Shown: positions 8,043-42,298, counted from the first letter of the stretch. The stretch is DNA of 64,000 bases from an uncultured cyanobacterium (GCA_963793265.1 CAWBZI010000002.1:128001-192000); one strand, 5' to 3'. Notes: generated from the letters alone by a model not told the origin. Made by a program: numbers and translations.

Positions 8043-8100
8043 AAACCTTAATTCTGCTAAATACTGACGGAAAATACAACATTTTTTGAAGGATAAAGAC

Positions 8101-9168
8101 ATGACGACAACACAAGTGCAACCAAGGGGTCTGCTAGAGGCTAAAAGCTGCTGGTTTGTGCCGTGGGCAGAACTTAGCGATCTAGACAATGCAGCTAGCC
8201 CAGATCATGGAAAGCTAAGAAAAGTTGATTCGGAACTCTCTGAAGCGGGTACTTTTCTTGAGGCGGGTAGCCCGTTTACGATTTCTCTAGAAGCCTTTGC
8301 CGTGCAGAACGCTCACGACAGTGATGGCACAAACGATCTTCTGGTCAGAACGTTTGTGCGCTATGGAGATGAGCCAAAAACAGAAACTATAAATTATTTC
8401 GGCACTGACATCGCTGCGGCATCCTTTGTAGACAATCTGGAATATGAGCATGTCTTCTCCAGGCGTGATTTTTCTGAAAATGTTCGGATATGGCTCTCGC
8501 TAGAAATTGCAGAAATCGATAAGGGACTAGCAAAAGACGACGTTGCTTCTGGCCTAGAAAAAATGCGCGCTCAGTTTGGGGCTGTTTTTTCCTCATTCAT
8601 TCCGTTTGCGACAGTCGCTGGGGTTGCGATGGATACAGTTTCAGGGCTCAAGAAGATTAGAGAATCTGCTAGCCAGAACAAAAAAATTCTCTCTAGTCAG
8701 ATAGATCTTTATGCAATGACTTTTAGCGGCGGAGATGCGCCGCTGCGCTGCGGTGCATACGTTTTCTTTAATGAGGACGTGCCAGGCGTTCAGTACCGTT
8801 TAGGCTCAGGATTTAAGCTCAAACGCGCTGCTATAAAGGATAAAGACGTGCCGATTCTGCATGACTACGCGGTGGTAAAAATTACGCCCGGCTTTATTGA
8901 CTCAGGCAAGAATCCTGAGGAGATACTGAAGAATCAGGAGCTGGCCAAAGTGCTAAGTTCCGAAGATGACGGTGCCAGCGCAGAGCAACGTTCCGATCAC
9001 TTTGACTTTTTGTCTGGGCTGATTGATAGCGCCAATAAGCTCAAAGATATTGATTACTACCGCGAAGTAACAACAGCCGCTAACACGTTCAACCGTCCGC
9101 TTACGCCCGCCCAAGAAAATAGGCTCGTTGAGATTAAAACGAGACTAGGCCAGTATCTTTCTGACTAA
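8101..9168 (+). CDS. Hypothetical protein with central hydrophobic/amphipathic segment
   Basis: Long ORF in operon, AAGGA upstream of ATG 8101; segment FGAVFSSFIPFATVAGVAM. Confidence 0.75.
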   Translation: MTTTQVQPRGLLEAKSCWFVPWAELSDLDNAASPDHGKLRKVDSELSEAGTFLEAGSPFTISLEAFAVQNAHDSDGTNDLLVRTFVRYGDEPKTETINYFGTDIAAASFVDNLEYEHVFSRRDFSENVRIWLSLEIAEIDKGLAKDDVASGLEKMRAQFGAVFSSFIPFATVAGVAMDTVSGLKKIRESASQNKKILSSQIDLYAMTFSGGDAPLRCGAYVFFNEDVPGVQYRLGSGFKLKRAAIKDKDVPILHDYAVVKITPGFIDSGKNPEEILKNQELAKVLSSEDDGASAEQRSDHFDFLSGLIDSANKLKDIDYYREVTTAANTFNRPLTPAQENRLVEIKTRLGQYLSD

Positions 9169-9205
9169 AAAGTTTCAGCAACAAAACTCTCTAGAGGTAA
9201 TTAAA

Positions 9206-10105
9206 GTGATTTCAAGCGACAAGTTAAGAGACGGTGCACAGGTAGGAAAAGTTGGAAATCAATCGTTTGAGCTAATGAGACAAAATATAGCGCAAGTGAA
9301 AAGCGGGTTGTCTAGGGGCGATCGCGCACCCTCTTTCTCAGATACGCTCAAGCTAACAACACCTTTTATGCAGGGTGAAACGGTAAAGGCGCTGCAGTAC
9401 AATCTGTCAGACCTGAGCTTTGCAGCCCATGCAGACGGTACGTTTGGGCCATCGACCGAGGCCGCCGTTAAAGCTTTTCAACAGTCTCACGGACTGACGG
9501 CTGATGGCGTTGCAGGCCAGATCACCCTGACAAAAATTCGCGAGGTGAAGCGACAGGCCGTGACCAGTTCGGCCATGCCCGCTCACATGATGGATAGCGG
9601 CATGGTGTCTGACTGGGCAGGCGGCGATAAGCTTGCTGCGGTTGAGGCGATTAAACGAGAGGCCAGACGACAGAAGATTTCGGAGCGATCGCACATAGCC
9701 TACATCTTAGCCACTGTCGATCACGAAACAAACGGATCGTTTCAGCCAGTAGAGGAGGGCTACTATCTAGGAGCCAATGCAGAGGCTCATCGTCAAACGC
9801 TGGACTATTATCCTTACTACGGTCGAGGCTATGTGCAGATTACCTGGGCCGAGAACTATCACAAATACTCGAAGCTAACAGGTTTAGACTTGCTCAATCA
9901 GCCAGAGTGGATGCTGCGGCCAGACGTTTCTCTCTTTGTTTTGATAGATGGGATGAAGCGAGGCGTGTTCACAGGCAGGCGGCTGGATGACTTTACTACG
10001 GGTAGCCGTTTTGATTTTGTCGAAGCTCGTAGGATCATTAACGGTAAAGACAGGGCCGAAGAGATAGCGAGCCTGGCCGATAGCTGGCTGTCTGGAACTG
10101 CCTGA
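9206..10105 (+). CDS. Peptidoglycan-binding domain + GH19/lysozyme-like (endolysin-type) hydrolase
   Basis: DGTFGPST..AVKAFQ..GLTADGVAG (PG_binding_1); YILATVDHET, YYGRGYVQITW.ENY, ARRIING.DRA. Confidence 0.85.
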   Translation: MISSDKLRDGAQVGKVGNQSFELMRQNIAQVKSGLSRGDRAPSFSDTLKLTTPFMQGETVKALQYNLSDLSFAAHADGTFGPSTEAAVKAFQQSHGLTADGVAGQITLTKIREVKRQAVTSSAMPAHMMDSGMVSDWAGGDKLAAVEAIKREARRQKISERSHIAYILATVDHETNGSFQPVEEGYYLGANAEAHRQTLDYYPYYGRGYVQITWAENYHKYSKLTGLDLLNQPEWMLRPDVSLFVLIDGMKRGVFTGRRLDDFTTGSRFDFVEARRIINGKDRAEEIASLADSWLSGTA

Positions 10106-10128
10106 GCTGCTGCTGTACGCTATTGAAT

Positions 10129-10157
10129 AGTCGCTGTTGTTAAACGGCAGCGACTTT
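10129..10157 (+). terminator. Intercistronic stem-loop / possible terminator
   Basis: AGTCGCTGTTGT-TAA-ACGGCAGCGACT followed by TT. Confidence 0.5.
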
Positions 10158-10186
10158 ATGCATTTACCTTCTGCGTATCTACTACT

Positions 10187-12430
10187 ATGCCTGTTCTTCG
10201 AGTCTGTAAAATTCTAGTTTTAGCTGCCAACCCTCAAGACACGTCAGGGCTGCGGCTAGATGAGGAGGTGCGCGGCATTCAGCGCAGTATTCAGATGGCA
10301 AAAGAGCGCGATCGCTTCCAAATCATCTCTGAATGGGCCGTAAGAACAGAAGACCTGATCCAAATACTGATGACCCATCAGCCGCAGATTGTTCATTTTA
10401 TTGGGCACGGCAGCGGTCAACAGGGCTTAGTGCTAGATGACGGCAGGGGGCGTAGCCAAACGGTGCCCACGCGGGCGCTGGCGAGACTGTTTCAGCAGGT
10501 GAGCAGCGTGGAGTGCGTACTGCTAAACGCCTGCTATTCTGACACGCAGGCGAAAGCGATTGTTCAGTTTGTTTCCTGCGTGGTGGGAATGAATCAGCAG
10601 ATTGGCGATCCGGCAGCGACCAGCTTTTCGCGGGGTTTTTATACCGCGCTAGGGCACGGCAGCGCCTATGAAGCCGCTTATGAAATGGGGCGTACGGCAA
10701 TTGACTTAGAAGGGATTACAGAAGTGGAAACGCCTGTGCTGAGAACCCGTACGGGCCGAGTAATCAATGAGCGGTCTGCGCTAGATACTCAGCAAGACAG
10801 GCAGGCGAGGGCTCAGCGCGGCGAACAGGTGAGGGCTCAGCATGTATTTATCAGCTATCGAGATCAGTCGCCAGATAAAGATCTTGCTCAAGTGTTTTAC
10901 GATGCTTTTATCGACGCTGGGCATAGCGCTTTTATGGCGGCGGAGAGTATTAGATTAGGGGAAGACTGGCGCGATCGCATTGCGCTAGAGCTACGCCAGT
11001 GCGACTACTTTTTGCTTTTACTCTCGCCGCTATCAGCGATGAGCGAGATGGTGACAGAAGAGGTAAAAAGAGCGCGATCGTTTAGAGATCGGCGCGAAGA
11101 CGGCAGGCCCACCATCTTACCGATTCGGGTCAAGTTTCCAATAGACGATCCGCTAAACTACGAGCTACGAGGATATTTGCAGAAGATTCAGCAGCGAGAA
11201 TGGCAGTCTGAGGCCGACACGCCCGCGCTATTGCTAGAGCTAATAGCATTGCTGCAAGATGAGGTAGCGCTGCCGATTAGTCAGCCTGTCAGCACAAGAG
11301 ATATCGGCCTTGACCTTAGCCTTGAACAGGACGAAAGGCCGCTGCTGCCGCGTTCTGTTGTAGAAAGCATTGACCAGCCGCCGCTGCCAGTCGCAGAGCC
11401 GGAGCTGAAAAGAGAGCCGGGTGGGTCGGTGCCGCTGAAGTCGGGGCTGTATGTAAATAGGTCACCGATTGAAGCGGACTGTTTTGCTGAGATTGAACAA
11501 CCCGGTGCGTTGATTCGGATAAAAGCGCCGCGTCAGATGGGCAAAACATCGCTGATGGCACGCATTCTCAATCATTCTAGAGAGCTGGGCTATCAGACGG
11601 TGCCGATTAGCTTTCAGCGGGCAGATAGCTGTTTGTTTAACGATTTAGACCTGCTGCTGAAGTGGTTTTGCTCGCAGGTGGGGCGCAGGCTCAAAAAGCT
11701 GGCTGCGCTGGAAGATTACTGGACTGGCTTTGGCAGTAAGGACAAGTGCAATGCTTATTTTGAAGAATGCCTGCTGGCAGATTTGGAAGCGCCGCTGGTG
11801 CTAGCGCTTGATGAGGTAGACATGGTGTTTCCACATCCGGCGGTAGCGGACGACTTTTTTGCGCTGGTGCGCTCCTGGTATGAGTCGGCGCGCTATGGAG
11901 ACTTTGGTAGCGAGCTGTGGGAAAACCTGCGGCTGGTGATTGTTCATTCTACCGAAGTCTATGTGCCGCTGAACATCAACCAGTCTCCTTTTAACGTGGG
12001 CAAAAATGTAGAGCTGATGGAGTTTACCGCCGAGCAGGTGCAAGATCTAGCTGAGCGCTACGATCCGTCTGCTCGGATGAGTCAGACGCAGGCGCTGATG
12101 GCTTTGGTGAACGGGCATCCCTATCTAATTCGCAAAGCGCTGTACCACCTGCGGCGAGAAGATTTAACGCTGAATGAATTGGCTGAAACGGCGGCGACTG
12201 AAGCAGGCATCTATAGCGATCATCTGCGGCGGCATCTATACGTATTGCAAGACTATCCGCGGCTAGCAGAGGCATTTCGGCAGGTGGTGACCAAGCGTCA
12301 GGGCGTAGATATCGATGCGGAGTCGTCGTTTAAGTTGGAGAGTATGGGGCTGGTGAGACTGTCGGGTAATGAGGCAGCGCCGCGCTGCGAGGTGTACCGC
12401 GAGTATTTTTGCGAGCATCTAGAAGGCTAA
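10187..12430 (+). CDS. CHAT-TIR-AAA_35 protein
   Basis: [32 protein letters not shown]; Walker [10 protein letters not shown], Walker B LALDEVD, SPFNVG. Confidence 0.9.
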
Positions 12431-12468
12431 AGGAAGGTCAAAAGGAAACTCTAAAAAGGAGGTCGGCG

Positions 12469-15400
12469 GTGAGAACAGCAACGGCAATTCAGTATACAGT
12501 TGGCGGAGCGCTGCGGCAGGATGCGCCTACTTATGTGGTTAGACAGGCAGATAGCGAACTTTACGAGGCGCTGATGGCCCGAGAGTATTGCTATGTGTTC
12601 AACTCTCGGCAAATGGGAAAGTCTAGCCTGCGGGTGCAGGTAATGCAGCGGCTGCTGAGTGAGGGCATGGCCTGCGGAGTTGTTGAGGTGACCAGTATTG
12701 TTGAATCAGGGACGACTTCAGAGCAGTGGTATCTGGGACTGATTCGGCGGCTGGCTCGGAGCTTGCGGCTCAAGGTGAAGGTATTGGAATGGTGGCGCGA
12801 TCGCACGGGCCTTTCGCCTATTCAATGCTTCAGCGAGTTTGTTGAAGACGTGCTGCTGCCCGCAATTGATCGCCCTGTTGTCATTTTCATAGACGAAATT
12901 GACAGTTTGTTTAATTTCGACTTCAACGACGATTTTTTCGCGCTGATTCGCGCTTTTTATCAGGAGCGTGCGGAAAATGAGGCGTATCGGTACTTGAGCT
13001 TTGTGCTATTAGGCGTAGCAACACCAGGCGATTTGATTCGTAACAAGCAGCGAACATCGTTTAATATTGGCGGCCAGTTTATCAACTTGAAGGGGTTTCA
13101 ACCGACTGAAACCAAACCTTTAGAGGCTGGCATTATCCGGCAAGCAGACAATCCGACAGCGGTGCTAGCGGCAATTCTAGACTGGACAAAGGGACAGCCG
13201 TTTTTAACACAACGGCTGTGTCAGCTTATTGCTGAAATGGATTTTAAGATTGTTGCAGGTGAGGAGCAGGCGCAGGTTGATCAGATAGTGCGATCGCGCC
13301 TTATAGAAGACTGGGAAGCCCAAGACGTATCGGTGCATTTGAAAACGATTCGCGATCGCATCCTCATTGATGAAACGCAAGCGGGCCGACTGCTGGGCCT
13401 ATACGAGCGCATTCTAATAGCTCAGAAAGTGCCTGCAACGGGCAGCGATGAACAAATTCAGCTACGGCTATCAGGGCTAATCCGTGAAGAGAATGGCTGC
13501 TTGCGGGTAGCCAATCCCATCTACCGGGCCGTATTTAATCAAGCCTGGATTGATGCGAGATTGTTGAGGCTGCGACCCTATGGCAGAGAGATTGCCGCCT
13601 GGTTGGCTTCAGCGAAAAAAGATGAGTCCCGGCTGTTAGAAGGAAAGGCTTTACAGAATGCGAGAGATTGGGCAGCCGGAAAGCTACTGAGCGACGACGA
13701 TCGGCTCTTTTTAGATGCCAGCCAGGAGCTAAGTCAGCGAGAGTTGCGTAAAGTGCTCTCTGCTGAGCAGCAGGCCAAAGAGATTTTGGCAGCGGCGAAC
13801 CGAAAGGCCGAGTCTCGGCTGCGGATAGGACGACTGGCTTTGGGCGGCACGGTTTTGGGTGCGATCGCTGCGGCCAGTGTAGCTGGATACGGGCTTTGGA
13901 ATGTAAGGCACCAAAAAGCAAACCTGGCACTTGAAATATCAGGAACTAACGCACTGCAAAAGTTTCAAAACAGGCCCATAGAAAGCTTGGTGGATGCGAT
14001 GAAAGCTGGGCAGCAGCTTCAGCAGCAGTCTAGACGCTCAGTAGACACTGATAGCTATCAGCACGCTGTTTATAGTCCATTAGTGGCGCTAGATAAGATT
14101 CTTCGAGAGATAACAGAAGTTAATCAAATTGAAATTTACAGCCGGGTTAGCAGTGCTAGCTTTAGCCCTGACGGACGGCGGATTGTAACCGCCAGCGAGA
14201 ATAGCGGCGCGCAGATATGGGATGCTGAGTCAGGCAAGGAACTACAGCAGTTCGAAGGCCATTCGGACGAGGTGACCAGCGCTAGCTTTAGCAGTGATGG
14301 ACAAAGAATCGTAACGACCAGTTACGACAATACCGTGCGGATATGGGATGCCGACTCAGGTGAGGAGCTACAGCAGCTCGACAGCGACTGGGAGAGGGTG
14401 AACAGCGCTAGCTTTAGTAATGACGGACGACGGATTGTAACGGCTAGTTATGACAACACCGTGCGGATATGGGACGCTGCGTCGGGCGCAGAACTACAAC
14501 AGCTTAAAGGCTATCCATCCACAGTCATCATTGCAAGCTTCAGCCCTGATGGGCAACAGATTGTAACGATCAGTGAGGCCACCGTGCGGATATGGGATGC
14601 CGAGTCGGGTGCACAACTACAAAAAGTTGAAGGTCATTCATCCATCGTGCACAGTGCCAGCTTCAGCCCTAATGGGAAGCAGATTGTAACAGCCAGTGCC
14701 GACAACACCGTGCGGATATGGGACGCTGCGTCGGGCGCAGAACTACAAAAGTTTGAAGGTCATTCGTCCATCGTGCACAGTGCTAGCTTTAGTGAGGATG
14801 GGCAGCGGATCTTAACAGCTAGTAATGATAACACCGTGCGGATATGGGACGCTGCGTCGGGCGCAGAACTACAAAAGTTTGAAGGTCATTCGTCCATCGT
14901 GCACAGTGCTAGCTTTAGCAAAGATGGGCAGCGGATTGTAACGGCCAGTTACGACAACACTGTGCGGATATGGGATACCGAGTCGGACAAGAAGATACAA
15001 CAGCTTGAAGGTCATTCATCCATACTGAACAGTGCTAGCTTTAGCGAAGATGGGCAGCGAATTGTAACGGCCAGTGGCGACACCACCGCACGGGTATGGA
15101 ATGCCAATTCAGGCGCAGAACTACAACAGCTCAAAGGCTATGAATACGGAGTCAACAGCGCCAGCTTTAGCCCTGATGGGCAGCGGATTGTAACGGCTAG
15201 TTGGGACAACACCGTGCGGGTATGGAATGCCGAATCGGGCAAAGAACTACAACAGCTCAAGGGACATTCATCTGCGGCGTATAGCGCCAGCTTTAGCCCT
15301 GATGGGCAGCGGATTGTAACGGCTAGTTGGGACAACACCGCGCGGGTATGGGATGCCGAATCAGGCGCAGAACTGCTACAGCTTGGCGGTCATTCATCGT

Positions 15401-33743: not shown

Positions 33744-34065
33744 GACGCTTTTCTCAAATGGTTTTTACATGCAAAAGTGAATGTGCCTGTAGCAGCACCG
33801 GTTAGTGAGATTCACTCTATCTACATCTGTATAGGTGCGGAAAAATCGACCTTATGCACATTTTTTTAAAATGCTGCCTATTGCTCATAGAGAACAAAAT
33901 TGGTAACCTTACCGATATCTCTCATCCATATCGCGATGATTATGCAACCCACTCTAAAGACAATTTTAAAGTTGTTCTCGTCGAGGCGCTGCATAATTTT
34001 TACCTTCTGTCGCTGAGATCTGACATGCGGCAAAGCACTTTACCTAAGTAGTATTTTCTCTCGTC

Positions 34066-34956
34066 ATGGAATCAAACTTTTTAACGGCTGTCTTTCTTCC
34101 CCTGGCCTTGTTTGTCATTATGCTCGGCATGGGGCTAGGACTGAGTGCCGCCGACTTTAAGCGGATTGCGATCGCACCCAAAGCAGTCATCATCGGTCTA
34201 CTTGCGCAGCTAGTAATGCTCCCGCTAATCGGCTTTCTCTTCGCCTCCATTTTCCCCCTTTCACCAGAGCTAGCCGTTGGCGTGATGATACTAGCCGCCT
34301 GTCCTGGCGGGCCAACGTCTAATCTGGTGACCTACCTGGCAGTAGGAGATGTGGCACTTTCTATTACGCTCACGGCAATCAGCAGTATCATCACCGTATT
34401 CACCATTCCGCTCGTGGTCAATCTAGCCACGAGTAGCTTTATTGGGCAGAACGTTTCACTTCAGCTACCCTTTGGAGAAACAGTGCTCCAAATTGCCGTT
34501 ATCACGATTATTCCTGTAGCACTAGGCATGTTACTGCGCCGCTATGCACCCCAGTTTTCAGCCAAAGTTGAGAAAGGAGTGAAGTGGCTTTCGTTATTTT
34601 TTTTAGCGCTGATTATCTTTGGCCTACTGCTAAAGGAGCGGGCGAGCGTGGTTACTTTCTTTTTGCAAGTCGGCTGGGTGACGCTAGCGCTGAACGTAGC
34701 GACAATGGTTCTAGGCTACTTAATTGCAACGGTAGCTAGGCTTGGGCAAAAAAGTGCGGTTGCCGTTACCTGCGAAGTGGGGATTCAAAATGGAACGCTT
34801 GCGATCGCAGTGGCAAGCGCGCCAACGCTGCTAAACAATCCAACGATGGCCATTCCAGCCGCCATCTATGCGCTGCTTATGTTCGCAACAGGCGGGCTCT
34901 TTGCACTATGGGCAAGAGGCAAACAGAGTCCTCGCGCTATCAAAGATTCTGTTTGA
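34066..34956 (+). CDS. Bile acid:sodium symporter (BASS) family transporter
   Basis: MLGMGL, CPGG.TSN, GDVALS, EVGIQNG motifs; multiple TM helices. Confidence 0.93.
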   Translation: MESNFLTAVFLPLALFVIMLGMGLGLSAADFKRIAIAPKAVIIGLLAQLVMLPLIGFLFASIFPLSPELAVGVMILAACPGGPTSNLVTYLAVGDVALSITLTAISSIITVFTIPLVVNLATSSFIGQNVSLQLPFGETVLQIAVITIIPVALGMLLRRYAPQFSAKVEKGVKWLSLFFLALIIFGLLLKERASVVTFFLQVGWVTLALNVATMVLGYLIATVARLGQKSAVAVTCEVGIQNGTLAIAVASAPTLLNNPTMAIPAAIYALLMFATGGLFALWARGKQSPRAIKDSV

Positions 34957-34957
34957 A

Positions 34958-36607
34958 TTAAGGCATGAAGATGTTTGCAATACCAATAGTCTTGCTACGT
35001 TCTTCTTGAGTGTGAAATTTCTTTCTAGCCCTACCGTCTTTACGCCTAATGCCGCTGCTACCGCTTTGATCCTCAGCACCTCTTTTTTCTAACTTTCGCT
35101 GCACAGTAACCTTTGGCCTAAACTGGTTAAGCTTTGGGATGCCAAGCCCTCGCAGACTCGTCGTTTCTGGAGCGGCAGGCTGATTGAACAATACAGAAAA
35201 CAAACTTCTCGGCTCAGCTAGACTACCAGGCGGCTCAGTCAAAAGAGAATCGCTCGCAACTATCTTCTCCCAGTCCAGCGGCTTTAGTAGCGGTGACTGG
35301 CCTTTAGCACACCAAACCTTCTCCATCGCCTGCAGAAATTCATGGGCAATGATGCCATAGCCAAGCGTCGTCGGGTGCGTACCGTCGAGACTGAACAAAC
35401 CGCCTTTGTAAATATTATCGGGCGTTTTAGGCTCTGGGTCTAGTCGGAAATACCTCGTATCGAGAAGCACCTCATCGTCGGCGGTAACCCGGTTGTTCGT
35501 TCTAGGATTAGCGCGCAGTGCGGCTACTAGCTCGGAGGGGAAGGTGTAGCGACTCGCACCCTGCTGACGGCGAAACGCCAGCTTGTCTAAGCTGTTCGCC
35601 ATATCAACTAAGTGCCAGCCGTAGCGGTTAGCTTCGACTTGAATCAGAAAGTTGTATTCATCGACGACGGCATCTATTTTTTTGACCTGCGATCGCGTCA
35701 AATGAGGATGCTGCTCTGGGTCAAACTCGCTGTCCCAAATCCAAAAGTGAGTGTAGTACTCAAAGTAGCCGTCAGCGTCCTGCCCTTCACCGGGCGCTGC
35801 CCCAGGCGTCACGCCACGACTAACGGGTGGAATTGTCACATGGGGAACATTGCCGATAAACACATTTTCTGCGCCCAACGCCGCTACCTTTTTGGCCACG
35901 CGGCGTAGCACTGGCTTGAAGTGCTCAGGCCGCCACAGCGTCGCTGTTCGTAGATGTAGCGGCTGGCTAGCTGTCTCTTCTGTAGACCATTCCACATTGA
36001 GATTGACCATCGTTTGCAGGCAGTGGTTGCTACCTAGCCAAAAAATAAGATTATCAATACCGTCTGCCTCAGCAATCTTCTGAGCAACGCCTAGCTGAGC
36101 TAGCGACTGATACTGCCGTGTCTGGCTAGGATTTAGCGTTCGCCGGGCCGTTCGATACAGCGCAAACTCAGGCTGCTGCTCAACAGGGTCATCTTCTGCA
36201 GGTGGGATGAACTGCTGAACAACCTCATCAGAGAGCGTATCGCAATCTGGCAGTTGAAAGCCCCAAACAGAAAGATTACGGTGCAGCGGGCCAGTTGCCG
36301 ATGGGAGAGTTCCTTCGCCTCTCTCCCAATAGTCTTCAACAATATCCATAAACTGTCCAATAGCGAGCTGTAGTAGTTCAGGGTTCGCCTGAAATAAGCA
36401 GCTACCAAACTGAGCCTCTAGATAGTTCAGCAAGGCTTCTAGATTGAGCGGCAAACCGTCTGCACCTGAAAAGTCAGGGATATGGAAGTCACAGTCTCTC
36501 AAGCACTCAGCAATCAAAGCTGGGAAAGACAAATGCGTTTTAGAAATACTGCCATTGAGAAAACCCTCACTAACACTATCACCAATAACAACAAGTTTTG
36601 CAGGCAT
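34958..36607 (-). CDS. SGNH/GDSL-like hydrolase
   Basis: IGDSVSEG block I, WLGSN block III, SLDGTHP (DxxH) block V; AGGAGG upstream. Confidence 0.8.
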   Translation of the reverse strand: MPAKLVVIGDSVSEGFLNGSISKTHLSFPALIAECLRDCDFHIPDFSGADGLPLNLEALLNYLEAQFGSCLFQANPELLQLAIGQFMDIVEDYWERGEGTLPSATGPLHRNLSVWGFQLPDCDTLSDEVVQQFIPPAEDDPVEQQPEFALYRTARRTLNPSQTRQYQSLAQLGVAQKIAEADGIDNLIFWLGSNHCLQTMVNLNVEWSTEETASQPLHLRTATLWRPEHFKPVLRRVAKKVAALGAENVFIGNVPHVTIPPVSRGVTPGAAPGEGQDADGYFEYYTHFWIWDSEFDPEQHPHLTRSQVKKIDAVVDEYNFLIQVEANRYGWHLVDMANSLDKLAFRRQQGASRYTFPSELVAALRANPRTNNRVTADDEVLLDTRYFRLDPEPKTPDNIYKGGLFSLDGTHPTTLGYGIIAHEFLQAMEKVWCAKGQSPLLKPLDWEKIVASDSLLTEPPGSLAEPRSLFSVLFNQPAAPETTSLRGLGIPKLNQFRPKVTVQRKLEKRGAEDQSGSSGIRRKDGRARKKFHTQEERSKTIGIANIFMP

Positions 36608-36689
36608 TTTTGCTTCCTCCTTAAAGGATTAGGGGTTTCAGGGAGTTGTTTAGATTTCAAAGATAAAATCTCAGTGACCATCAGGCATC

Positions 36690-36725
36690 TTATGAATGTC
36701 ACCATCTAGACCATGACAAATGTCA
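36690..36725. promoter_or_regulatory. Paired operator-like palindrome
   Basis: TTATGAATGTCA-N12-TGACAAATGTCA upstream of SGNH gene. Confidence 0.65.
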
Positions 36726-36981
36726 TAGCAACGAACCTGATGGGGACTGCTAGTAAGTAGGAAGCCACCGAACAAACCTATGCACTCTTAAACGAATTGC
36801 AGTCCAGCTTTTTGTGCCGCTGCCAATGCTAATCGGAGAAGAAAGCACCTTTCATAGCGCTATCATCATCCACCTACAGCGTCTCTATGTGGTTAGACGC
36901 CCGCGTTAGCGCCGCCATACCCCCCCGCAGTAGAGACGATAGCCGCTACGCCTGAGTGAACTGAGGCACTGCCAGCAGCGG

Positions 36982-38058
36982 CTAGTTCAAATTGTCAGTA
37001 CCTGTCAACGTAAGCACGATTTCGGTCGGGGCGGTATCAACAAGGGTGCTGCTGTGTTCGCATTTATCGTCATAGGGAAAAGCGTAAGACTTTCCATCTA
37101 TACTCAACTCGTGCAAAATTTTGGCATAGTAATGAGTGGTTGAATTGAAATAGTACTTACCTGCATCACACCAAGTAGACGAATCGCTATTGAGTAGAAT
37201 TGTTCGATTTAAGGCTGCTGACACCTGATTTTTGATGTCTCCATCAATGATGCGAGCTAAGCCACTACCTGCCGGGTTAAAAACGCCATCACAGCCAAAG
37301 ACATTGTTAGAAGTTGGTTTGGGAATTGCGTGTGTGGTATTACCTGGCGCTGTCACAAAGTTAAATACGTTGTTGCCATCAACACTTCCCTTTGAAATGT
37401 AGGTCGCGCCGACAAAGGGCAGGGGCTGCAGTGTCAGCGATCGGCTTCGATACTGTTGCCAGCATTTGTCGATGTAGGCATTGAAGTAGTTTTGTGGAAA
37501 CGTGGCATCTTTCTGTGGCGCTAGAATTCTTAACTGCTTGTCGCCAGCAGCACGAATTAATGAATTAAAGGGAGACGCTTTTTGAAATGCCTTGAATATC
37601 TGACTTCTAGAAGCAGACATGCCTACGCTCTGCTTTCTACTGCCAATGAGCGTCGCCGTAATCGGCATTCCAAAAAAGTCTACGCTAGTCGTATTGCAGT
37701 AAACTGTTTTGTCTGGATTGTAGGTAAACTCAAACTTATCAAAAATGATGCTGTAATTAGGGTCTGTTTCTACATTAAATGCTGGCCCTGTAAAGCCTAA
37801 ATCCCAGAGAGGAACGGTCAAAGGCCGACCTATTGAGATCCAGCATCGACCAGAAATAATAGGTGGCGACAAGTGAATTGATCCTCGATCGGAGAGCTTA
37901 AAAAACGGCACGTTTACTTTTTGGGATTGGGGCGGCGCTTTTTGCCAACTGCCATTAGGCGTGATGTATCCCCACTTACCCGATTGTTCTCCGATAATGC
38001 CAAAATAAATATCTTTGTTGCTGTACTGGTTTGTATTGTTGATAATTGATAATTCCAT
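36982..38058 (-). CDS. GH64 beta-1,3-glucanase (GH64/thaumatin-like fold)
   Basis: DKFEFTYN, NTTSVDFF, RILAP, AALNR, YAKILH...IDGKSYAFPYDD; AAGGAG before ATG 38058/38061; no signal peptide. Confidence 0.88.
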   Translation of the reverse strand: MELSIINNTNQYSNKDIYFGIIGEQSGKWGYITPNGSWQKAPPQSQKVNVPFFKLSDRGSIHLSPPIISGRCWISIGRPLTVPLWDLGFTGPAFNVETDPNYSIIFDKFEFTYNPDKTVYCNTTSVDFFGMPITATLIGSRKQSVGMSASRSQIFKAFQKASPFNSLIRAAGDKQLRILAPQKDATFPQNYFNAYIDKCWQQYRSRSLTLQPLPFVGATYISKGSVDGNNVFNFVTAPGNTTHAIPKPTSNNVFGCDGVFNPAGSGLARIIDGDIKNQVSAALNRTILLNSDSSTWCDAGKYYFNSTTHYYAKILHELSIDGKSYAFPYDDKCEHSSTLVDTAPTEIVLTLTGTDNLN

Positions 38059-38108
38059 CATTCTCCTTTGCAAATGTTGTAACGTATCGCTAATAGCAAG
38101 CATCATAT

Positions 38109-39107
38109 TTACTTGCGGACATACTTACCTTGAGCGTTAAGAAACCAAATGCCATAGTGTCCTTCGGCTCCCTTTGGCCCTTTCCACGGTTCTGAGGAAG
38201 GAGATTTACCGTCCTGCGCGCTTTTCCAAGGTTCATCGATCGCTTCAAACAAGTAGGTCATCACACGGTTCGTTTTGGCCCACTGGCCCATTGCTTCGTA
38301 GTAGGCACGAAGATTCGATACAGTATTGTCTGTTTTATTGAAGCTATATCCTTGCGATGGCCATCCCGTTTCGCCAATCATCACCTCACACTGCGGATTT
38401 ATTTTGGCAACCGCCGTAAGGATTTGTTTAAAGGCACGATCCACCTGTTTAACGCCTTCGGTGGGGTTAGGAGCATGTTCACCCGGATAAAGATTGCACT
38501 GGATGAAGTCGCAATTTTGGATGAGTCTTTTTAGTTCGTTGTAAAAGGAGCTGTTGGGGTTGGCAATTTCTCCAAAAGTATGCGATCGCACACCCACCTT
38601 TATATTCAGTTCGTGCGCTTTCTGTTTGTTATTTACAATCATGGTGTTAACAGCATTCGCCGTTTCTGCGTTAACCACATACTCATTTGTAAAAACAAAA
38701 GAAGTTACCGTGCCAGGATAAACAGCATTCGCTGCTTTAGCCGCAGAAAAAGCAGCCTCAATTTCTATCTGCTGGTACGTCGGATTGTCGTGCTGATATA
38801 TTCCCTGCGCTACTTGAATTGCTAAAGTGCCCCTTTGCTGATTCAACCGGGAAGCCGCACCTGCAACCAGACAGTTAGCATCGAGCTTATTCCAGGGCGT
38901 TGTCGGCGGATAGTACCCTGCATAGCCCATACTGTAGGTGCTAATTCGGTCGAACTCGGTAGAGACGACCTCAAGCATTTGAATAATATCCTGCTGGCTG
39001 TATGAGTCCCAAAGGGGGACTTTAGCGTTCGGCGGTGTTCCTATCCAATGACCAACATAGGGGCTAAAAGCCACACCGAGAAATTGAGGGCCAAAAATAG
39101 TTTTCAT
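38109..39107 (-). CDS. GH17 beta-1,3-glucanase
   Basis: GVAFSPY, TNE (acid/base Glu), NLYP, IGETGWPS (nucleophile Glu), FEAIDEPWK, EGHYGIW. Confidence 0.88.
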   Translation of the reverse strand: MKTIFGPQFLGVAFSPYVGHWIGTPPNAKVPLWDSYSQQDIIQMLEVVSTEFDRISTYSMGYAGYYPPTTPWNKLDANCLVAGAASRLNQQRGTLAIQVAQGIYQHDNPTYQQIEIEAAFSAAKAANAVYPGTVTSFVFTNEYVVNAETANAVNTMIVNNKQKAHELNIKVGVRSHTFGEIANPNSSFYNELKRLIQNCDFIQCNLYPGEHAPNPTEGVKQVDRAFKQILTAVAKINPQCEVMIGETGWPSQGYSFNKTDNTVSNLRAYYEAMGQWAKTNRVMTYLFEAIDEPWKSAQDGKSPSSEPWKGPKGAEGHYGIWFLNAQGKYVRK

Positions 39108-39162
39108 GTTTTCTCTCTTGAATTAAATTGATTTGAGATGGCCAGTGCGTCGATGTGCAGCT

Positions 39163-39885
39163 CTAAAACGGTTTTTGGCCTCTAAAGTTACCTTGAGAGG
39201 TATAGCGACAAACCAGCCTATCCCTACCGTCTCTACCTTTAACTACGGCGCATCCTACTTTTGTTGTCTTTCGCCACACTATCTGCGTGTAGTGGCCCAC
39301 ATCGGCCCAGTTACCCGTCTTGCTAACATTAGGGAATGTGCCATAGACAAAGTGTTTCTTTTCATCTCCCCAGCTACCCACCATTTGGGTATAGCTAAAC
39401 CGGCCAGAGGTACCCATCCAAAGATTTTCACCTTCTCCTTTAGCCCCGCTATGCTTAAATCCGTTAGTGGCTGCAAGATGATTGGCCCATTCTTTAGCAT
39501 GATTAGCCAGCGTGTTTGACCAGGCGAGCGGCGCGACCCCAACCTGCGAGCGGTAGGAATTATGGGCATTCAAAAGCTCTTGAACCATACCGCCACCGCC
39601 TGAGGGATTGCCGGGCGGGTTGCTAGGCGACGTGCCCGATGAGACTTGCTTAAAAGAAGAGATCGCGTCGTTCCACTCATTAGTGACATAAGAATAATCA
39701 CCTGGGGCTAGCCGGAAACTCCTGCCCTGGTAGTTTGCGTGTTCAAAAAATTCCCAGGTACCCGATTCGACCTTAATTGAAGAGATTTTGTCATTCCAAA
39801 AGTCTCCGACATAGGGATATGATTTGCTCAGAGAAAGCGAGGCAGAACCAGAGAATTGAGCGTCTGTAAAAATTTTGACTGACAT
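39163..39885 (-). CDS. Beta/gamma-crystallin + CAP (SCP/PR-1) domain protein
   Basis: WNDKISSIKV..W.FFEH..YQG crystallin; HN.YR, GENLW, GHYTQIVW..T..VGC, VCRY..QGN. Confidence 0.9.
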   Translation of the reverse strand: MSVKIFTDAQFSGSASLSLSKSYPYVGDFWNDKISSIKVESGTWEFFEHANYQGRSFRLAPGDYSYVTNEWNDAISSFKQVSSGTSPSNPPGNPSGGGGMVQELLNAHNSYRSQVGVAPLAWSNTLANHAKEWANHLAATNGFKHSGAKGEGENLWMGTSGRFSYTQMVGSWGDEKKHFVYGTFPNVSKTGNWADVGHYTQIVWRKTTKVGCAVVKGRDGRDRLVCRYTSQGNFRGQKPF

Positions 39886-39946
39886 CGTAAATGTTCTGTT
39901 TTTCTTGAAAGGACAGTTTGGAAAAATTGTTCTGAGCATCAGGTAT

Positions 39947-39977
39947 CGTAGGGGCATAGCAGTGCTATGCCCCTACG
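39947..39977. repeat. GTAG-type REP-like palindrome (small dispersed repeat)
   Basis: CGTAGGGGCATAGCA-G-TGCTATGCCCCTACG, perfect 15-bp arms. Confidence 0.8.
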
Positions 39978-39990
39978 GCATTCGGCAGTC

Positions 39991-41013
39991 CTAAGTGCTT
40001 TCAACAATAATTGAGGAGGCCATATCGTTAAAGTCATCACCCAAATAAGGCGCATCCTTCGTAAACGTCTTGCGCCGCCCCTGGAATCCACCATGTTCAA
40101 AGAGAGTTACTTTCAGTCCTTTGGGCACTTTCATAGAGCTAATCGCATCGTTGGTAAATCCTCCATCATATCGACCTATGCTCAAAGCCTTGGCAGGTTC
40201 GCCATAGTCAGCGTGGCGGTAGATGTAGGCAACAGCCTGGCTGCCCGTACCGCCACCATCGGAGAAGGGATAAATTGAACGAATGAAGGCTTTGTCTGTA
40301 TCTGAAAGATATGAACTCGACTTGACCTCATAGCCATTCGTCGTTAGCTCTTTGCGAACGGAATAAAGCATGATCGACTTCGTGTCGAACTTAGAGAATT
40401 GAGTGATATCTTTTCCATACCGTGAGAACAAGTTGCTATCAACTCTCTCTCTGGGCCAGTTGTTCGGCGGCCCCATGTAGTAGCGGTAAACGGCATCGCG
40501 GTTCCAAGGAATGCCAGCTTCTGGATGCTGATGCTCGTGGATACAGCCTAAGGCATGTCCAAACTCATGCAGCACCACGCCAGAATATTCTCTATCAGAG
40601 CTATCAGGCTTTAGCCAGCCGTAGTTCATCGTAGCTTCGTTCTGATTCTTCCTGCTAAGCGCATCTGTTCCTAGCAGTGACCAAGAGCCACCGGGCTTAA
40701 AAGAAATGCGAATTTCAGCTTGTTGATGATTGCCAAAGTTGAATTTAATATTGGCAAACTGGCTCCACTGATGGGCAAACGCCTCAACTTTACGATGAAC
40801 GCTTGGATCGCCATCTAAGAAGCGAACCCGCAGCGTCTGACCGGGCTTCCACTTTTTACGCGTAATTATCGCACCGCGAGAAAGGGGCGCTGAGGGACTA
40901 TCGCCTTCTAGCAGACTATTGCTTTCTAACGGACTATTGCTCTTTAACAGAAGATCGTCTTCTGGAGAAACGTCAATACAAACCTTAGCTGATTCAAGTA
41001 GACTATCAAACAT
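39991..41013 (-). CDS. Metzincin (astacin/M12A-like) metalloprotease + beta/gamma-crystallin
   Basis: HEFGHALGCIHEH, Met-turn SIMLY, C-terminal NDAISSMKVP.G..VTLFEH..FQG. Confidence 0.88.
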   Translation of the reverse strand: MFDSLLESAKVCIDVSPEDDLLLKSNSPLESNSLLEGDSPSAPLSRGAIITRKKWKPGQTLRVRFLDGDPSVHRKVEAFAHQWSQFANIKFNFGNHQQAEIRISFKPGGSWSLLGTDALSRKNQNEATMNYGWLKPDSSDREYSGVVLHEFGHALGCIHEHQHPEAGIPWNRDAVYRYYMGPPNNWPRERVDSNLFSRYGKDITQFSKFDTKSIMLYSVRKELTTNGYEVKSSSYLSDTDKAFIRSIYPFSDGGGTGSQAVAYIYRHADYGEPAKALSIGRYDGGFTNDAISSMKVPKGLKVTLFEHGGFQGRRKTFTKDAPYLGDDFNDMASSIIVEST

Positions 41014-41064
41014 CGTTTATTTCCTGCGTGTAGTAAGGTGTCAAAAAAATAAGTTCAGCAGTCT

Positions 41065-42183
41065 CTAGCAAGAAAGGTTGCTGCCTGGAGAGACACCTAG
41101 CTCGCTAGTAAACTGCTTATAGAGCTGTATTCTGTGCTGAACTTTCGGGTTATTTTGCTGACCGCACTCAAGGCCGCCATTGATGATGTTGATGGTCGCA
41201 CCAAAGCCAGATGCGTTGATGGCCGTGTGACAGGCAGCTTTGGGCGGCTGGGGGGTCATCCAAAACCACAGAGCGCTCATAAAGGCAACGGCACTGTCTG
41301 TTGCAACCCGGTCAGGATTGTTGAGCAGGTCGATACCTAGCGCTTTTCCACAGGCGGCATAGTTGTAGTTCCACGAAAGCTGCATCGGGCCACGACCGTG
41401 ATAGGTTTTACCCGGCACGCAAGGGTACTGACCTGTCTGGCAGTAGTGGGGCCAGTTGGCCTTGTTCTCTTCTTCAATGGCTTTCAAGCTCCCTGTTTCA
41501 TGAGAGATGTTGGCCAAAAACGCCGCGGCCTCACGCTTGTTTTGCTCGCTTGTTCCATCGTTACAGAACTTAGGGTATTTTTTTGTAGCAGCGACTAGCC
41601 CGCTATAGGTGTAAAACCTATTTCGATTTGGAAACATCGTCTCAAAGGTTTGCTGTGATACGATCTTTGCAAAGCCACTGCTCGTACCAGTCGTCGGGCC
41701 AGTAGACGGGCCAGTTGTTGGAGAAGAGCCGTTAGCCTTGATGATAAGAGAAGAGGCTGTGTCGTTGAAATCATTACCCACATAAGGGGCATCGGCTGTG
41801 AATGCCTTACTCGAACCGCCAAACCGAGCGTGCTCATAAAGGACAACCGTCATTCCAGAGGGAACTTTGAGAGAACTAATGCTGTCGTTTTTAAGCTGAC
41901 CGACGTCGTATTTGCCTACTTCAAAGGTTTGGCTATCGCCAGTATACTCAGCGTGCTGATAGGCAACTACTTTACCAGTTGTTGTCGGCTGAGGCTGCGA
42001 GCTAAGAGAGGGAATTTTGAGCGTTTGCCCCAGCTTTAAATCAGGGGGCTGAATATTGCCATTGGCAGCGGAGATCTTTGACCACTGATCGCCTGCGCCG
42101 TAGTAGGCTTGAGCAATATCAAATAGAGAATCTCCTGCCTCTACAGTATGAGTAGTGGGAGGATTGCCTTGTTTCCTAGCCAT
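41065..42183 (-). CDS. LysM-beta/gamma-crystallin-GH19 chitinase (plant/Streptomyces ChiC type)
   Basis: HTVEAGDSL..IA LysM; crystallin; FYTY, KREAAAFLANISHETG, YHGRGPMQLSWNYNY, SALWFW, INGGLEC, PGSNLSC. Confidence 0.93.
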   Translation of the reverse strand: MARKQGNPPTTHTVEAGDSLFDIAQAYYGAGDQWSKISAANGNIQPPDLKLGQTLKIPSLSSQPQPTTTGKVVAYQHAEYTGDSQTFEVGKYDVGQLKNDSISSLKVPSGMTVVLYEHARFGGSSKAFTADAPYVGNDFNDTASSLIIKANGSSPTTGPSTGPTTGTSSGFAKIVSQQTFETMFPNRNRFYTYSGLVAATKKYPKFCNDGTSEQNKREAAAFLANISHETGSLKAIEEENKANWPHYCQTGQYPCVPGKTYHGRGPMQLSWNYNYAACGKALGIDLLNNPDRVATDSAVAFMSALWFWMTPQPPKAACHTAINASGFGATINIINGGLECGQQNNPKVQHRIQLYKQFTSELGVSPGSNLSC

Positions 42184-42298
42184 TGTTTTTCTTCCAAAGA
42201 GTTTAGATGGGACTGTACTTGGGACTGTGCTGTAGTAAGTCTGTAGCTGTTAACGGGCTGGCGGCTCTCTGGCCTGCCTATTCTCACTGTGCTGCTTG

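What the first reader, a model, noticed from the sequence alone, without database searches (positions are those of the whole stretch)
36982..42183. Wall-degrading enzymes all lack signal peptides
Seen: N-termini MARKQG, MFDSLL, MSVKIF, MKTIFG and MELSII have no hydrophobic h-region, although their substrates are foreign walls and the chitinase keeps disulfide-type cysteines. Inference: they either wait in the cytoplasm for invading rhizoids or are released by lysis of a sacrificed cell or by non-classical export.
Basis: partly seen in the sequence, partly recalled or inferred. Interest (0 to 1): 0.7.

Follow-up and report, generated by a model that had tools for sequence, protein, structure and literature searches.

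The report
Signal-less antifungal-type enzyme operon in cyanobacterium
A cyanobacterium carries five neighbouring genes for enzymes that attack fungal-type cell walls, and none of them (nor their close relatives in other cyanobacteria) has the usual export tag, so they are probably stored inside the cell and reach their targets only when the cell envelope is opened.

Summary
Observation confirmed and extended. Window 36982-42183 (- strand) holds five tightly spaced genes: LysM-crystallin-GH19 chitinase, a pro-myroilysin-like M12 zinc protease with a crystallin domain, crystallin-CAP (PR-1-like), GH17 and GH64 beta-1,3-glucanases. None has a Sec/Tat/lipoprotein-type N-terminus, and only 1-22 non-hydrophobic codons are open upstream, so no hidden signal peptide is possible. 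This is a lineage trait, not a local accident: 0 of 120 M12 relatives, about 115 of 117 LysM-GH19 relatives, all about 45 cyanobacterial GH17 orthologues and the nearest GH64 relatives also start directly with the mature domain, whereas more distant homologues (Bacteroidota M12 23 of 24; GH64 78 of 142; arthropod GH17; most cyanobacterial CAP proteins) carry signal peptides in front of the same domain start. A second, unrelated cyanobacterium (G180) has the same five families clustered, all signal-less. Domains fill the proteins end to end, leaving no room for terminal secretion signals; no holin-like gene lies in the window. Best reading (about 0.45): a latent cytoplasmic stockpile exposed by lysis or envelope breach; active non-classical export (0.28) and intracellular roles remain open. 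Localisation was not testable here.

The parts
41065..42183 (-). Gene 1: LysM - beta/gamma-crystallin - GH19 chitinase, 372 aa, starts MARKQG, no signal peptide
42010..42150 (-). LysM domain (residues 12-58) beginning 11 residues after the start codon
   Evidence: Pfam PF01476 1.1e-11
41734..41982 (-). beta/gamma-crystallin domain of the chitinase (residues about 68-150) with two N/D-N/D-x-x-S/T-S motifs
   Evidence: (Clostrillin 3SO1 7.1e-14)
41068..41664 (-). GH19 catalytic domain (residues 174-372), runs to the last residue
   Evidence: Pfam profile 1-232 of 232; 2CJL 5.4e-69
39991..41013 (-). Gene 2: pro-myroilysin-like M12 zinc metallopeptidase with C-terminal crystallin domain, 340 aa, starts MFDSLL
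40876..41013 (-). N-terminal prosegment (residues 1-46) with invariant Cys12 in the motif KVCID; mature myroilysin (5ZJK) aligns from Gly47, after Arg46
   Evidence: (Cys12 invariant in 26 of 26)
40264..40875 (-). M12 catalytic domain (residues 47-250) with HEFGHALGCIHEH and SIMLY
39994..40224 (-). C-terminal beta/gamma-crystallin domain of the protease (residues 264-340)
39948..39976 (.). Perfect 13-14 bp palindromic hairpin between genes 2 and 3; covers the ATG of the longest CAP ORF; a dispersed repeat (6 exact places in the genome)
   Evidence: (-29.2 kcal/mol, z -5.4)
39163..39885 (-). Gene 3: beta/gamma-crystallin - CAP (PR-1-like) protein, 240 aa from MSVKIF (longest ORF from 39957, also without signal peptide)
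38109..39107 (-). Gene 4: GH17 beta-1,3-glucanase, 332 aa, starts MKTIFG; conserved FLGVAF domain start at residue 9
36982..38061 (-). Gene 5: GH64 beta-1,3-glucanase, 359 aa from MMELSII (longest ORF from 38106)
36844..36861 (-). Terminator-like hairpin about 120 nt after the GH64 stop; the only one on this strand in 36600-43000
   Evidence: weak: 2 sites found, 6.8 expected in shuffles

Best explanation
The five genes form an operon-like module (gaps of 51, 105, 55 and about 47 nt or an overlap) that encodes a cocktail aimed at eukaryote-type surfaces: chitin (LysM-GH19), beta-1,3-glucan (GH17, GH64), protein (M12) and a PR-1-type CAP protein, three of them tethered by a Ca-binding-type beta/gamma-crystallin module. 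The proteins are made without any export signal and stay in the cytoplasm in a harmless state (no substrate there; the protease is a cysteine-switch zymogen). They meet their substrates only when the producer's envelope is opened: by lysis or regulated death of some cells, or by the attacker breaching the cell. In a filamentous, clonal organism the loss of one cell then protects its neighbours, much as vacuolar chitinase and glucanase are released from collapsing plant cells (recalled). Shown: gene content, intact motifs, absence of signals, conservation of that absence, recurrence of the cluster. Inferred: targets, cytoplasmic storage, release by breach.
For: (1) No N-terminal signal and no room for one. 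(2) The trait is conserved: M12 0 of 120 relatives flagged and 0 of 20 ORFs from non-Bacteroidota loci; LysM-GH19 2 of 117 flagged, both non-cyanobacterial; about 45 cyanobacterial GH17 orthologues begin M-S-x-F-L-G-V-A-F; nearest GH64 representatives begin at the domain. (3) The same domains are extracytoplasmic elsewhere: Bacteroidota M12 23 of 24 with lipoprotein-type signals before the same VC(I/V)D motif; GH64 78 of 142; arthropod and some bacterial GH17 14 of 109; CAP homologues of other cyanobacteria 7 of 10 by the strict rule plus 2 with weaker hydrophobic leaders; GH19 about 60% identical to a Streptomyces 'secreted chitinase'. (4) Domains fill the proteins to both ends (GH19 to residue 372 of 372; GH17 from residue 9; GH64 2-351 of 359), so there is no spare N- or C-terminal segment for T1SS, T3SS, T9SS or double-glycine type signals, and the five N-termini share no motif. 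(5) No holin-like small membrane ORF outside long ORFs anywhere in the 64 kb. (6) Latency: invariant Cys12 in the motif shared with pro-myroilysin, whose cysteine switch is documented (PMC9848320 passages). (7) Six canonical N/D-N/D-x-x-S/T-S motifs in the three crystallin domains, a motif known (recalled) for Ca binding, fitting activity outside the low-Ca cytoplasm. (8) The same five families, all signal-less, are clustered on one strand in G180, a cyanobacterium of another family, the only one of 300 sampled that has the GH17 and chitinase orthologues. (9) In three other cyanobacteria the LysM-GH19/M12 pair sits beside Peptidase_C14 caspase-type and CHAT/NACHT genes.
Against: No localisation, expression or activity data: no RNA run holds the locus. 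Lysis release is argued by exclusion. The caspase link is not general: 0 of 6 further cyanobacterial M12 loci from the even sample had a caspase homologue within the fetched 15-20 kb, none was seen in the 40 kb read around the G180 cluster, and in this window the nearest caspase-type gene (3635-7224, apparently split) is 31 kb away. Serratia shows that signal-less chitinases can be secreted by living cells (PMC4259817), and a holin could lie elsewhere in the genome (not searched). Cysteine conservation does not discriminate. A Streptomyces relative of the M12 domain (SCO6992/AbsR1) is discussed as having an intracellular substrate (PMC9705864; NCBIfam 117.6 bits vs cut-off 650).
Confidence: 0.45

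Rival explanations
1. Active non-classical export from living cells, for example a holin-like pore plus a peptidoglycan hydrolase as in Serratia marcescens ChiWXYZ, or an as yet unknown cyanobacterial route, possibly in a subpopulation.
For: Precedent: ChiB and ChiC lack signal peptides and need holin-like ChiW and endopeptidase ChiX, without lysis (PMC4259817 passages). The window does hold signal-less wall hydrolases of endolysin type: Peptidase_M15_3 (7296-8042) and PG_binding_1 plus a weak GH19 match (9206-10105). Signal-lessness across several phyla suggests a widely available route.
Against: No small ORF with two or more membrane-type segments outside long ORFs in the 64 kb; the M15 and PG_binding genes lie 27-29 kb away among caspase/CHAT/TIR/STAND genes; no shared terminal motif or spare terminal segment; none of the proteins matches PADLOC models (not a secretion library). 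Holin families were not searched genome-wide.
Confidence: 0.28
2. Strictly intracellular defence: the enzymes stay in an intact cytoplasm and attack walled feeding structures (rhizoids, haustoria) that push into the cell.
For: Fits absence of all signals and the wall-directed modules.
Against: No evidence that this organism is parasitised by such fungi; holders of near-identical DNA are macroalgal and sediment metagenomes. Ca-type crystallin motifs, cysteines shared with a secreted chitinase and a zymogen needing activation fit a changed milieu better than an intact cytoplasm. A penetrated cell is in practice a breached cell, so this grades into the best explanation.
Confidence: 0.12
3. Ordinary cytoplasmic roles: breakdown of imported beta-glucan or chitin oligomers for nutrition, or a regulatory role of the M12 protein as proposed for Streptomyces SCO6992.
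For: SCO6992, a signal-less relative of the M12 domain, affects antibiotic production and its authors seek an intracellular substrate (PMC9705864). Laminarin is abundant on macroalgae, where near-identical DNA occurs.
Against: LysM, crystallin and, in relatives, B-lectin, ricin and PPC modules bind polymers, not imported oligomers; a CAP protein and a latent protease have no place in sugar salvage; no transporter or sugar kinase lies in the operon; the SCO6992 assay used an MBP fusion that may have kept its prosegment.
Confidence: 0.1
4. Artefact: mis-called starts, decaying genes, or foreign (contaminant) DNA.
For: Two genes have alternative starts (39957/39885; 38106/38061).
Against: Neither alternative gives a signal; stops close upstream; all ORFs intact with catalytic motifs; orthologues at 69-82% identity share the same N-termini; flanks are typical cyanobacterial genes and the assembly is 98.97% complete with 0.51% contamination.
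Confidence: 0.03

Closest known systems
Serratia marcescens chitinolytic machinery secreted through ChiWXYZ (holin-like ChiW, endopeptidase ChiX); PMC4259817, passages read
   Same: Wall-polymer-degrading enzymes (ChiB, ChiC) without canonical signal peptides that nevertheless act outside the cell; phage-lysis-like logic; expression in a subpopulation.
   Different: There GH18 chitinases for nutrition, with the holin and endopeptidase genes in the same locus; here GH19, GH17, GH64, M12 and CAP, no holin-like ORF in 64 kb, and no secretion data at all.
Myroilysin (Myroides; PDB 5GWD, 5CZW, 5ZJK), M12A metzincin with cysteine-switch latency (PMC9848320 passages)
   Same: About 50% identity over the catalytic domain (2.3e-65); HExxHxxGxxHE and S-I-M-x-Y; prosegment motif K-V-C-x-D-V-x-P; mature N-terminus right after the conserved Arg.
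   Different: Myroilysin is a secreted enzyme (abstracts in the listing) and its Bacteroidota relatives carry lipoprotein-type signals (23 of 24); the window protein has none and adds a crystallin domain.
Cyanobacterial LysM-GH19 chitinases, groups CHIT 11-I/II of the GH19 Engineering Database (PMC8547705, passages read)
   Same: Same architecture and lineage; LysM found only with cyanobacterial GH19 chitinases; mainly Nostocales and lichen-associated strains.
   Different: In the passages returned for my search terms that paper does not remark on missing signal peptides (its single 'signal peptide' hit concerns a plant reference enzyme), nor on the crystallin insertion or the gene neighbours.
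   Same: Same three protein families acting together against fungi and oomycetes; storage inside the cell and release at cell death in the vacuolar forms.
   Different: Plant proteins enter the secretory pathway with signal peptides; here a bacterial operon, plus GH64 and an M12 protease, with cytoplasmic synthesis.
Phage endolysins
   Same: Signal-less wall hydrolases with LysM or PG-binding modules that wait in the cytoplasm until the membrane is opened; GH19 also contains endolysins (PMC8547705).
   Different: The GH19 domain here is of the chitinase type (full-length match to plant and Streptomyces chitinases); no phage genes adjoin it.

Membership tests
GH19 chitinase (chitinase subfamily) | Full-length GH19 catalytic domain resembling characterised chitinases | tested here: met
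   PF00182 1.2e-55, profile 1-232 of 232; 2CJL 5.4e-69, 1WVU 9.6e-64, plant enzymes about 1e-50
GH19 chitinase (chitinase subfamily) | Acidic catalytic residues in the H-E-T-G and following Glu-rich segment (identity of catalytic residues recalled) | tested here: met
   Alignment to 2CJL and Anc4 shows the HETG segment and the downstream Glu conserved
Secreted chitinase (Sec/Tat dependent) | N-terminal signal peptide | tested here: not met
   LysM starts at residue 12
Astacin/myroilysin M12A metzincin | HExxHxxGxxHE zinc site and Met-turn with Tyr | tested here: met
   H149 E150 H153 H159 E160 and S213 M215 Y217 invariant in 26 of 26 aligned sequences; 5GWD 2.3e-65
Astacin/myroilysin M12A metzincin | Prosegment conferring latency (cysteine switch in myroilysin) | tested here: inconclusive
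   Cys12 invariant and motif shared with pro-myroilysin residues 26 onward; zinc ligation by this Cys not testable here
Astacin/myroilysin M12A metzincin | Signal peptide (stated as part of the minimal astacin architecture, PMC9848320) | tested here: not met
GH17 beta-1,3-glucanase | Match to the family model and the two catalytic Glu motifs (motif identity recalled) | tested here: met
   PF00332 33.4 bits over cut-off 28.2 but only the C-terminal part of the profile; T-N-E-Y and G-E-T-G-W-P segments visible in the translation; orthologues named GH17 by their sources
GH64 beta-1,3-glucanase | Full-length GH64 domain | tested here: met
   PF16483 6.3e-72, profile 3-369 of 370; 3GD0 LPHase 6.5e-30; catalytic residues not checked
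CAP / PR-1 superfamily | Full-length CAP domain | tested here: met
   PF00188 6.4e-25, profile 1-117 of 117; 56-66% identity to cyanobacterial CAP proteins
Microbial Ca-binding beta/gamma-crystallin | Crystallin fold match and two N/D-N/D-x-x-S/T-S motifs per domain (motif meaning recalled) | tested here: met
   PF00030 2.6e-15 in the CAP gene, below cut-off in the other two; Clostrillin 7.1e-14 and 1.2e-09; 6 of 6 motifs
Holin/endopeptidase secretion (ChiWXYZ-like, 'T10SS') | Holin-like small membrane protein encoded with the cargo | tested here: not met
   No 40-200 aa ORF with two or more membrane-type segments outside long ORFs in the window; rest of genome not searched
Holin/endopeptidase secretion (ChiWXYZ-like, 'T10SS') | Signal-less peptidoglycan endopeptidase partner | tested here: inconclusive
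   Peptidase_M15_3 at 7296-8042 without signal but 29 kb away and in another gene context
T1SS / T9SS / double-glycine leader cargo | Dedicated terminal signal (C-terminal RTX-type or CTD, or N-terminal GG leader) | tested here: not met
   Catalytic domains reach the termini; Pfam reports no such domain; no common N-terminal motif
Known anti-phage defence systems (PADLOC) | Match to a PADLOC model | tested here: not met
   0 families for 12 proteins

The most novel reading that the evidence does not exclude
A bacterial counterpart of the plant hypersensitive response: in filamentous cyanobacteria, NLR-like STAND sensors with caspase-type (Peptidase_C14/CHAT) effectors kill an attacked cell, and this death both releases and switches on a cytoplasmic arsenal of PR-like enzymes. 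The Arg-specific orthocaspase would cut the M12 zymogen after the conserved Arg46, exactly where mature myroilysin begins, while Ca influx and oxidation ready the crystallin modules and cysteines. The signal-less state of whole clades (LysM-GH19, myroilysin-like M12, GH17, GH64) would then be an adaptation to death-coupled release.
Probability: 0.15. Interest if true: 0.85.

Novelty: new variant of a known kind. Interest (0 to 1): 0.58.

Why it matters
Each family is known, and signal-less chitinases have a precedent in Serratia, but I found no paper that notes that whole cyanobacterial clades of chitinase, glucanases and a myroilysin-type protease lack export signals, or that they recur as one PR-like cluster. 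If these enzymes work only after cell breach, they give cyanobacterial cell death a concrete benefit to kin and a measurable output, and they offer a test of what orthocaspases do. It also bears on how cyanobacteria resist fungi and oomycetes in biofilms, lichens and blooms, and warns that signal-peptide-based secretome predictions miss such enzymes.

Tried and rejected
RNA evidence: no RNA holder listed for the locus; read laying was therefore not used. Rfam: no match at E<=0.1 in 34000-46000. Promoter/terminator scan: fewer sites than in shuffles, nothing usable upstream of the chitinase. Holin hunt by small multi-TM ORFs in the window: none; holin Pfam families were not searched in the genome. 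PADLOC: nothing. NCBIfam: only sub-threshold hits. Cysteine conservation as a proxy for an oxidising destination: inconclusive; some cysteines are shared by signal-bearing and signal-less groups (GH17 Cys204 12 of 14 vs 63 of 79; GH64 Cys256 17 of 19 vs 38 of 43), others are specific to the signal-less clade (GH17 Cys240 0 of 14 vs 49 of 79). Caspase adjacency as a general rule: rejected, 0 of 6 in the even sample. A conserved roughly 320-aa neighbour of M12 genes (Cyanobacteria, Gemmatimonadota, Acidobacteriota) was considered as an export or partner factor, but it has no Pfam match, no hydrophobic segment by eye, and no homologue in this genome. Earlier notes of this scan: nothing on this locus or sequence; two notes on other parts of the genome are unrelated. 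Exoproteome literature gave nothing on these families. Structure prediction, fold search and complex prediction were not used: they would not tell localisation.

Full report
WHAT IS THERE. Window 36982-42183 carries five co-directional genes on the minus strand. Pfam gives: (1) 41065-42183, 372 aa, LysM (residues 12-58), a beta/gamma-crystallin-type domain (about 68-150; Inhibitor_I36 4.8e-06, Crystall 1.7e-04 below cut-off, but Clostrillin 3SO1 at 7.1e-14) and a complete GH19 chitinase domain (1.2e-55) that ends at the last residue; (2) 39991-41013, 340 aa, an Astacin/M12 domain and a C-terminal crystallin domain; (3) 39163-39957 as the longest ORF, crystallin (2.6e-15) plus CAP (6.4e-25); (4) 38109-39107, 332 aa, GH17; (5) 36982-38106 as the longest ORF, GH64 (6.3e-72). 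Gaps are 51 nt (1-2), 105 nt (2-3, if gene 3 starts at 39885), 55 nt (3-4) and either a 2-nt gap or 47 nt (4-5). The likely true starts of genes 3 and 5 are MSVKIF (39885) and MMELSII (38061): the ATG of the longest CAP ORF lies inside a 14-bp hairpin, and the G180 orthologue of the GH64 gene starts MMKFSF at the aligned place.

The maximal 9-residue hydropathy in the first 45 residues is 0.72-1.41 for the five proteins and 2.04-3.18 for window proteins with evident signal or anchor segments. A stricter rule of my own flags 6 of 7 such controls and none of the five at either start. The ORF listing reports the first ATG/GTG/TTG after a stop, and only 22, 1, 5, 5 and 6 codons are open further upstream, none hydrophobic. 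So upstream starts cannot supply signal peptides. No trained predictor was available, and my rule is crude (one control and one plant chitinase were missed).

IT IS A LINEAGE TRAIT. M12: of 5928 hits the best 120 were read; 0 of 120 have a signal-like N-terminus and nearly all begin, within about 5-25 residues, with a motif like I-K-V-C-I-D. In DNA loci from named genomes, 0 of 20 ORFs from Cyanobacteria, Chloroflexota, Gemmatimonadota, Acidobacteriota, Myxococcota, Lysinibacillus, Paenibacillus and Nitrososphaeraceae are flagged, against 23 of 24 ORFs from Bacteroidota (Pedobacter, Mucilaginibacter, Chryseobacterium and others), where a lipoprotein-type leader precedes the same Cys motif (of the 48 loci, those without an ORF that matched my zinc-motif pattern are not counted). 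Six further, more distant cyanobacterial M12 ORFs are also unflagged. Chitinase: of the best 120 hits, 117 start with M and 2 are flagged (a plant and a CBM5/12 bacterial enzyme; a second plant enzyme has an evident leader that the rule missed); the roughly 110 cyanobacterial proteins start directly with LysM. GH17: 14 of 109 flagged, none among the first about 48 hits, which are cyanobacterial by the names that sources give and start M-S-x-F-L-G-V-A-F; flagged ones are springtail and mite proteins and a few bacterial ones, with the leader directly before the same motif. GH64: 78 of 142 representatives flagged, but most of the nearest ones (for example P0242-P0244, P0249, P0252, P0257, P0258) start at the domain. 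CAP is the exception that proves the point: of 10 homologues in other cyanobacteria, 7 are flagged, 2 have weaker hydrophobic leaders, and 1 has none. In this genome the leader's place is taken by a crystallin domain, and the one leaderless homologue is in G180.

THE CLUSTER RECURS. G180, a cyanobacterium of another family, has on one strand of contig C66 GH64 (12208-13284), LysM-GH19 (11316-12146), an unknown 298-aa gene, CAP (9897-10313), an M12-like gene (8445-9497) and GH17 (3973-4953), none with a signal-like start. In even samples of 300 other cyanobacterial genomes, the GH17 orthologue was found in 1 (G180), a close chitinase in 1 (G180) and M12 relatives in 7; the one same-family genome (G264) had none of the three. 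LysM-GH19 lies directly upstream of an M12 gene in a Calothrix MAG (L014) and Leptolyngbya sp. Prado105 (L058), and 3 kb away in Tolypothrix tenuis PCC 7101 (L013). Three closest metagenomic homologues (M12 69%, GH17 82%, chitinase 81%) are each listed on a contig of 110914 bases, probably the same one. The crystallin domain occurs in this genome only in these three genes and sits at the N-terminus, the middle and the C-terminus respectively, so it is a shuffled binding module, not a positional signal. Relatives of the M12 gene carry LysM, B-lectin, ricin or PPC modules instead.

THE ENZYMES LOOK FUNCTIONAL AND BUILT FOR THE OUTSIDE. The GH19 domain aligns over its whole length with Streptomyces coelicolor 'secreted chitinase' 2CJL and plant chitinases, with Cys248/255 and Cys340/372 conserved. 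The M12 domain is about 50% identical to myroilysin; the zinc ligands, the family Glu and the S-I-M-x-Y turn are invariant in a 26-sequence alignment, as is Cys12. Pro-myroilysin carries K-V-C-K-D-V-Y-P followed by R-G-A-V-V, like K-V-C-I-D-V-S-P ... R-G-A-I-I here, and the mature form 5ZJK aligns from Gly47, just after Arg46. Myroilysin's latency by a cysteine switch is stated in PMC9848320 (passages), which also states that astacins minimally have a signal peptide, a prosegment and a catalytic domain. All three crystallin domains have both N/D-N/D-x-x-S/T-S motifs, known to me (recalled) as the Ca-binding motif of microbial crystallins.

HOW IT MOST LIKELY WORKS. Any route that reads a terminal signal is unlikely: the domains reach both termini, Pfam finds no secretion-related domain, and the N-termini share nothing. 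That leaves non-specific opening of the envelope or no export at all. No holin-like ORF lies in the window. I therefore favour a cytoplasmic stockpile that is harmless in an intact cell (no substrate, latent protease) and meets its targets when the envelope is opened by lysis, regulated death or the attacker. Support from context is mixed. In L013, L057 and L058 a Peptidase_C14 gene, with CHAT/NACHT or CHAT/TPR genes, adjoins the chitinase/M12 pair, and L015 shows a caspase-like N-terminal fragment by eye. This window also holds CHAT, a caspase-DUF7379 gene that seems split into two overlapping ORFs (3635-4222 and 4141-7224), TIR-AAA_35 and STAND-WD40 genes, plus signal-less Peptidase_M15_3 and PG_binding_1 proteins. 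But these lie 27-38 kb from the operon, and 0 of 6 further cyanobacterial M12 loci had a caspase homologue nearby. The death-coupled version is thus kept as the novel case, not the main claim. Orthocaspases cut after basic residues (abstract of PMC6426788 as shown in the listing), which fits the Arg46 maturation site, but this is inference only.

RIVALS. Active export as in Serratia ChiWXYZ is a real possibility. Intracellular action on invading structures grades into the main reading. An ordinary cytoplasmic role gains some support from Streptomyces SCO6992/AbsR1, a signal-less relative of the M12 domain with a regulatory phenotype, no protease activity as an MBP fusion and a reported beta-glucuronidase activity (passages of PMC9705864; weak NCBIfam match). 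The polymer-binding modules and the CAP partner argue against it for this operon.

WHAT IS KNOWN. LysM-GH19 chitinases of cyanobacteria are a described group (CHIT 11; PMC8547705). Reviews of cyanobacterial antifungal enzymes describe other enzymes, with signal peptides (PMC10300848 passages). My six literature searches returned nothing on missing signals in these clades or on this five-family cluster; subscription journals are not covered.

VERDICT. It is a new variant of known kinds (signal-less lytic enzymes; PR-type antifungal sets). Interest 0.58.

Noticed in passing
window 38109-39107; proteins P0184, P0204, P0214, P0221, P0223, P0224: The closest non-cyanobacterial relatives of the GH17 gene (36-46% identity) are from springtails (Folsomia, Orchesella, Allacma) and mites (Oppia, Dinothrombium), most with eukaryote-type signal peptides: a likely bacterium-to-arthropod gene transfer in which a leader was gained.
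   Followed up: partly
window 39948-39976: Perfect palindrome (13-nt arms, 3-nt loop; -29.2 kcal/mol in context) between the protease and CAP genes; the same palindrome occurs at 6 places in the genome with loop variants, so it is a dispersed REP-like element.
   Followed up: partly
L058:10542-11555, L057:11091-12050, L014:2827-3789, L015:4809-5774, L022:8849-9922, L029:8717-9685, L069 about 3777-4697: A roughly 320-aa protein without Pfam match (conserved start region R-I-x-I-G-x-R-F-S-V-S-F-Q-R-T-L-R-I-P-D-D-G) sits next to signal-less M12 genes in Cyanobacteria, Gemmatimonadota and Acidobacteriota; absent from this genome by tblastn. A second conserved neighbour of about 600 aa occurs in Lysinibacillus, Paenibacillus and Chloroflexota loci.
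   Followed up: partly
window 3635-7224: Caspase (Peptidase_C14) plus DUF7379 protein appears split into two overlapping ORFs (3635-4222, 4141-7224), whereas L057 has one 1135-aa protein of that architecture; two intact paralogues lie elsewhere in the genome.
   Followed up: partly
window 7296-10105: Signal-less Peptidase_M15_3 (7296-8042), an unknown 360-aa gene and a PG_binding_1 protein with a weak GH19 match (9206-10105) lie between caspase and CHAT-TIR-AAA_35 genes: a second case in this window of wall hydrolases without export signals, here beside cell-death-type genes.
   Followed up: no
window 42879-45680 and 34958-36607: Upstream of the operon lie an animal-haem-peroxidase-family protein (592 aa, 1.7e-112) and an unknown 322-aa protein, downstream a weak GDSL-like 549-aa protein; all without signal-like starts. 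They might add lipid-derived chemistry to the module, but G180 lacks them near its cluster.
   Followed up: no
window 36900-42900: Near-identical DNA (0.68-0.89 of sampled words) is held by macroalgal and sediment metagenome runs of two studies; one may be the source of the assembly.
   Followed up: no
window 42184-42878: About 700 nt without a long ORF precede the chitinase gene; only two short overlapping ORFs (65 and 66 aa), no Rfam match, no clear promoter.
   Followed up: partly
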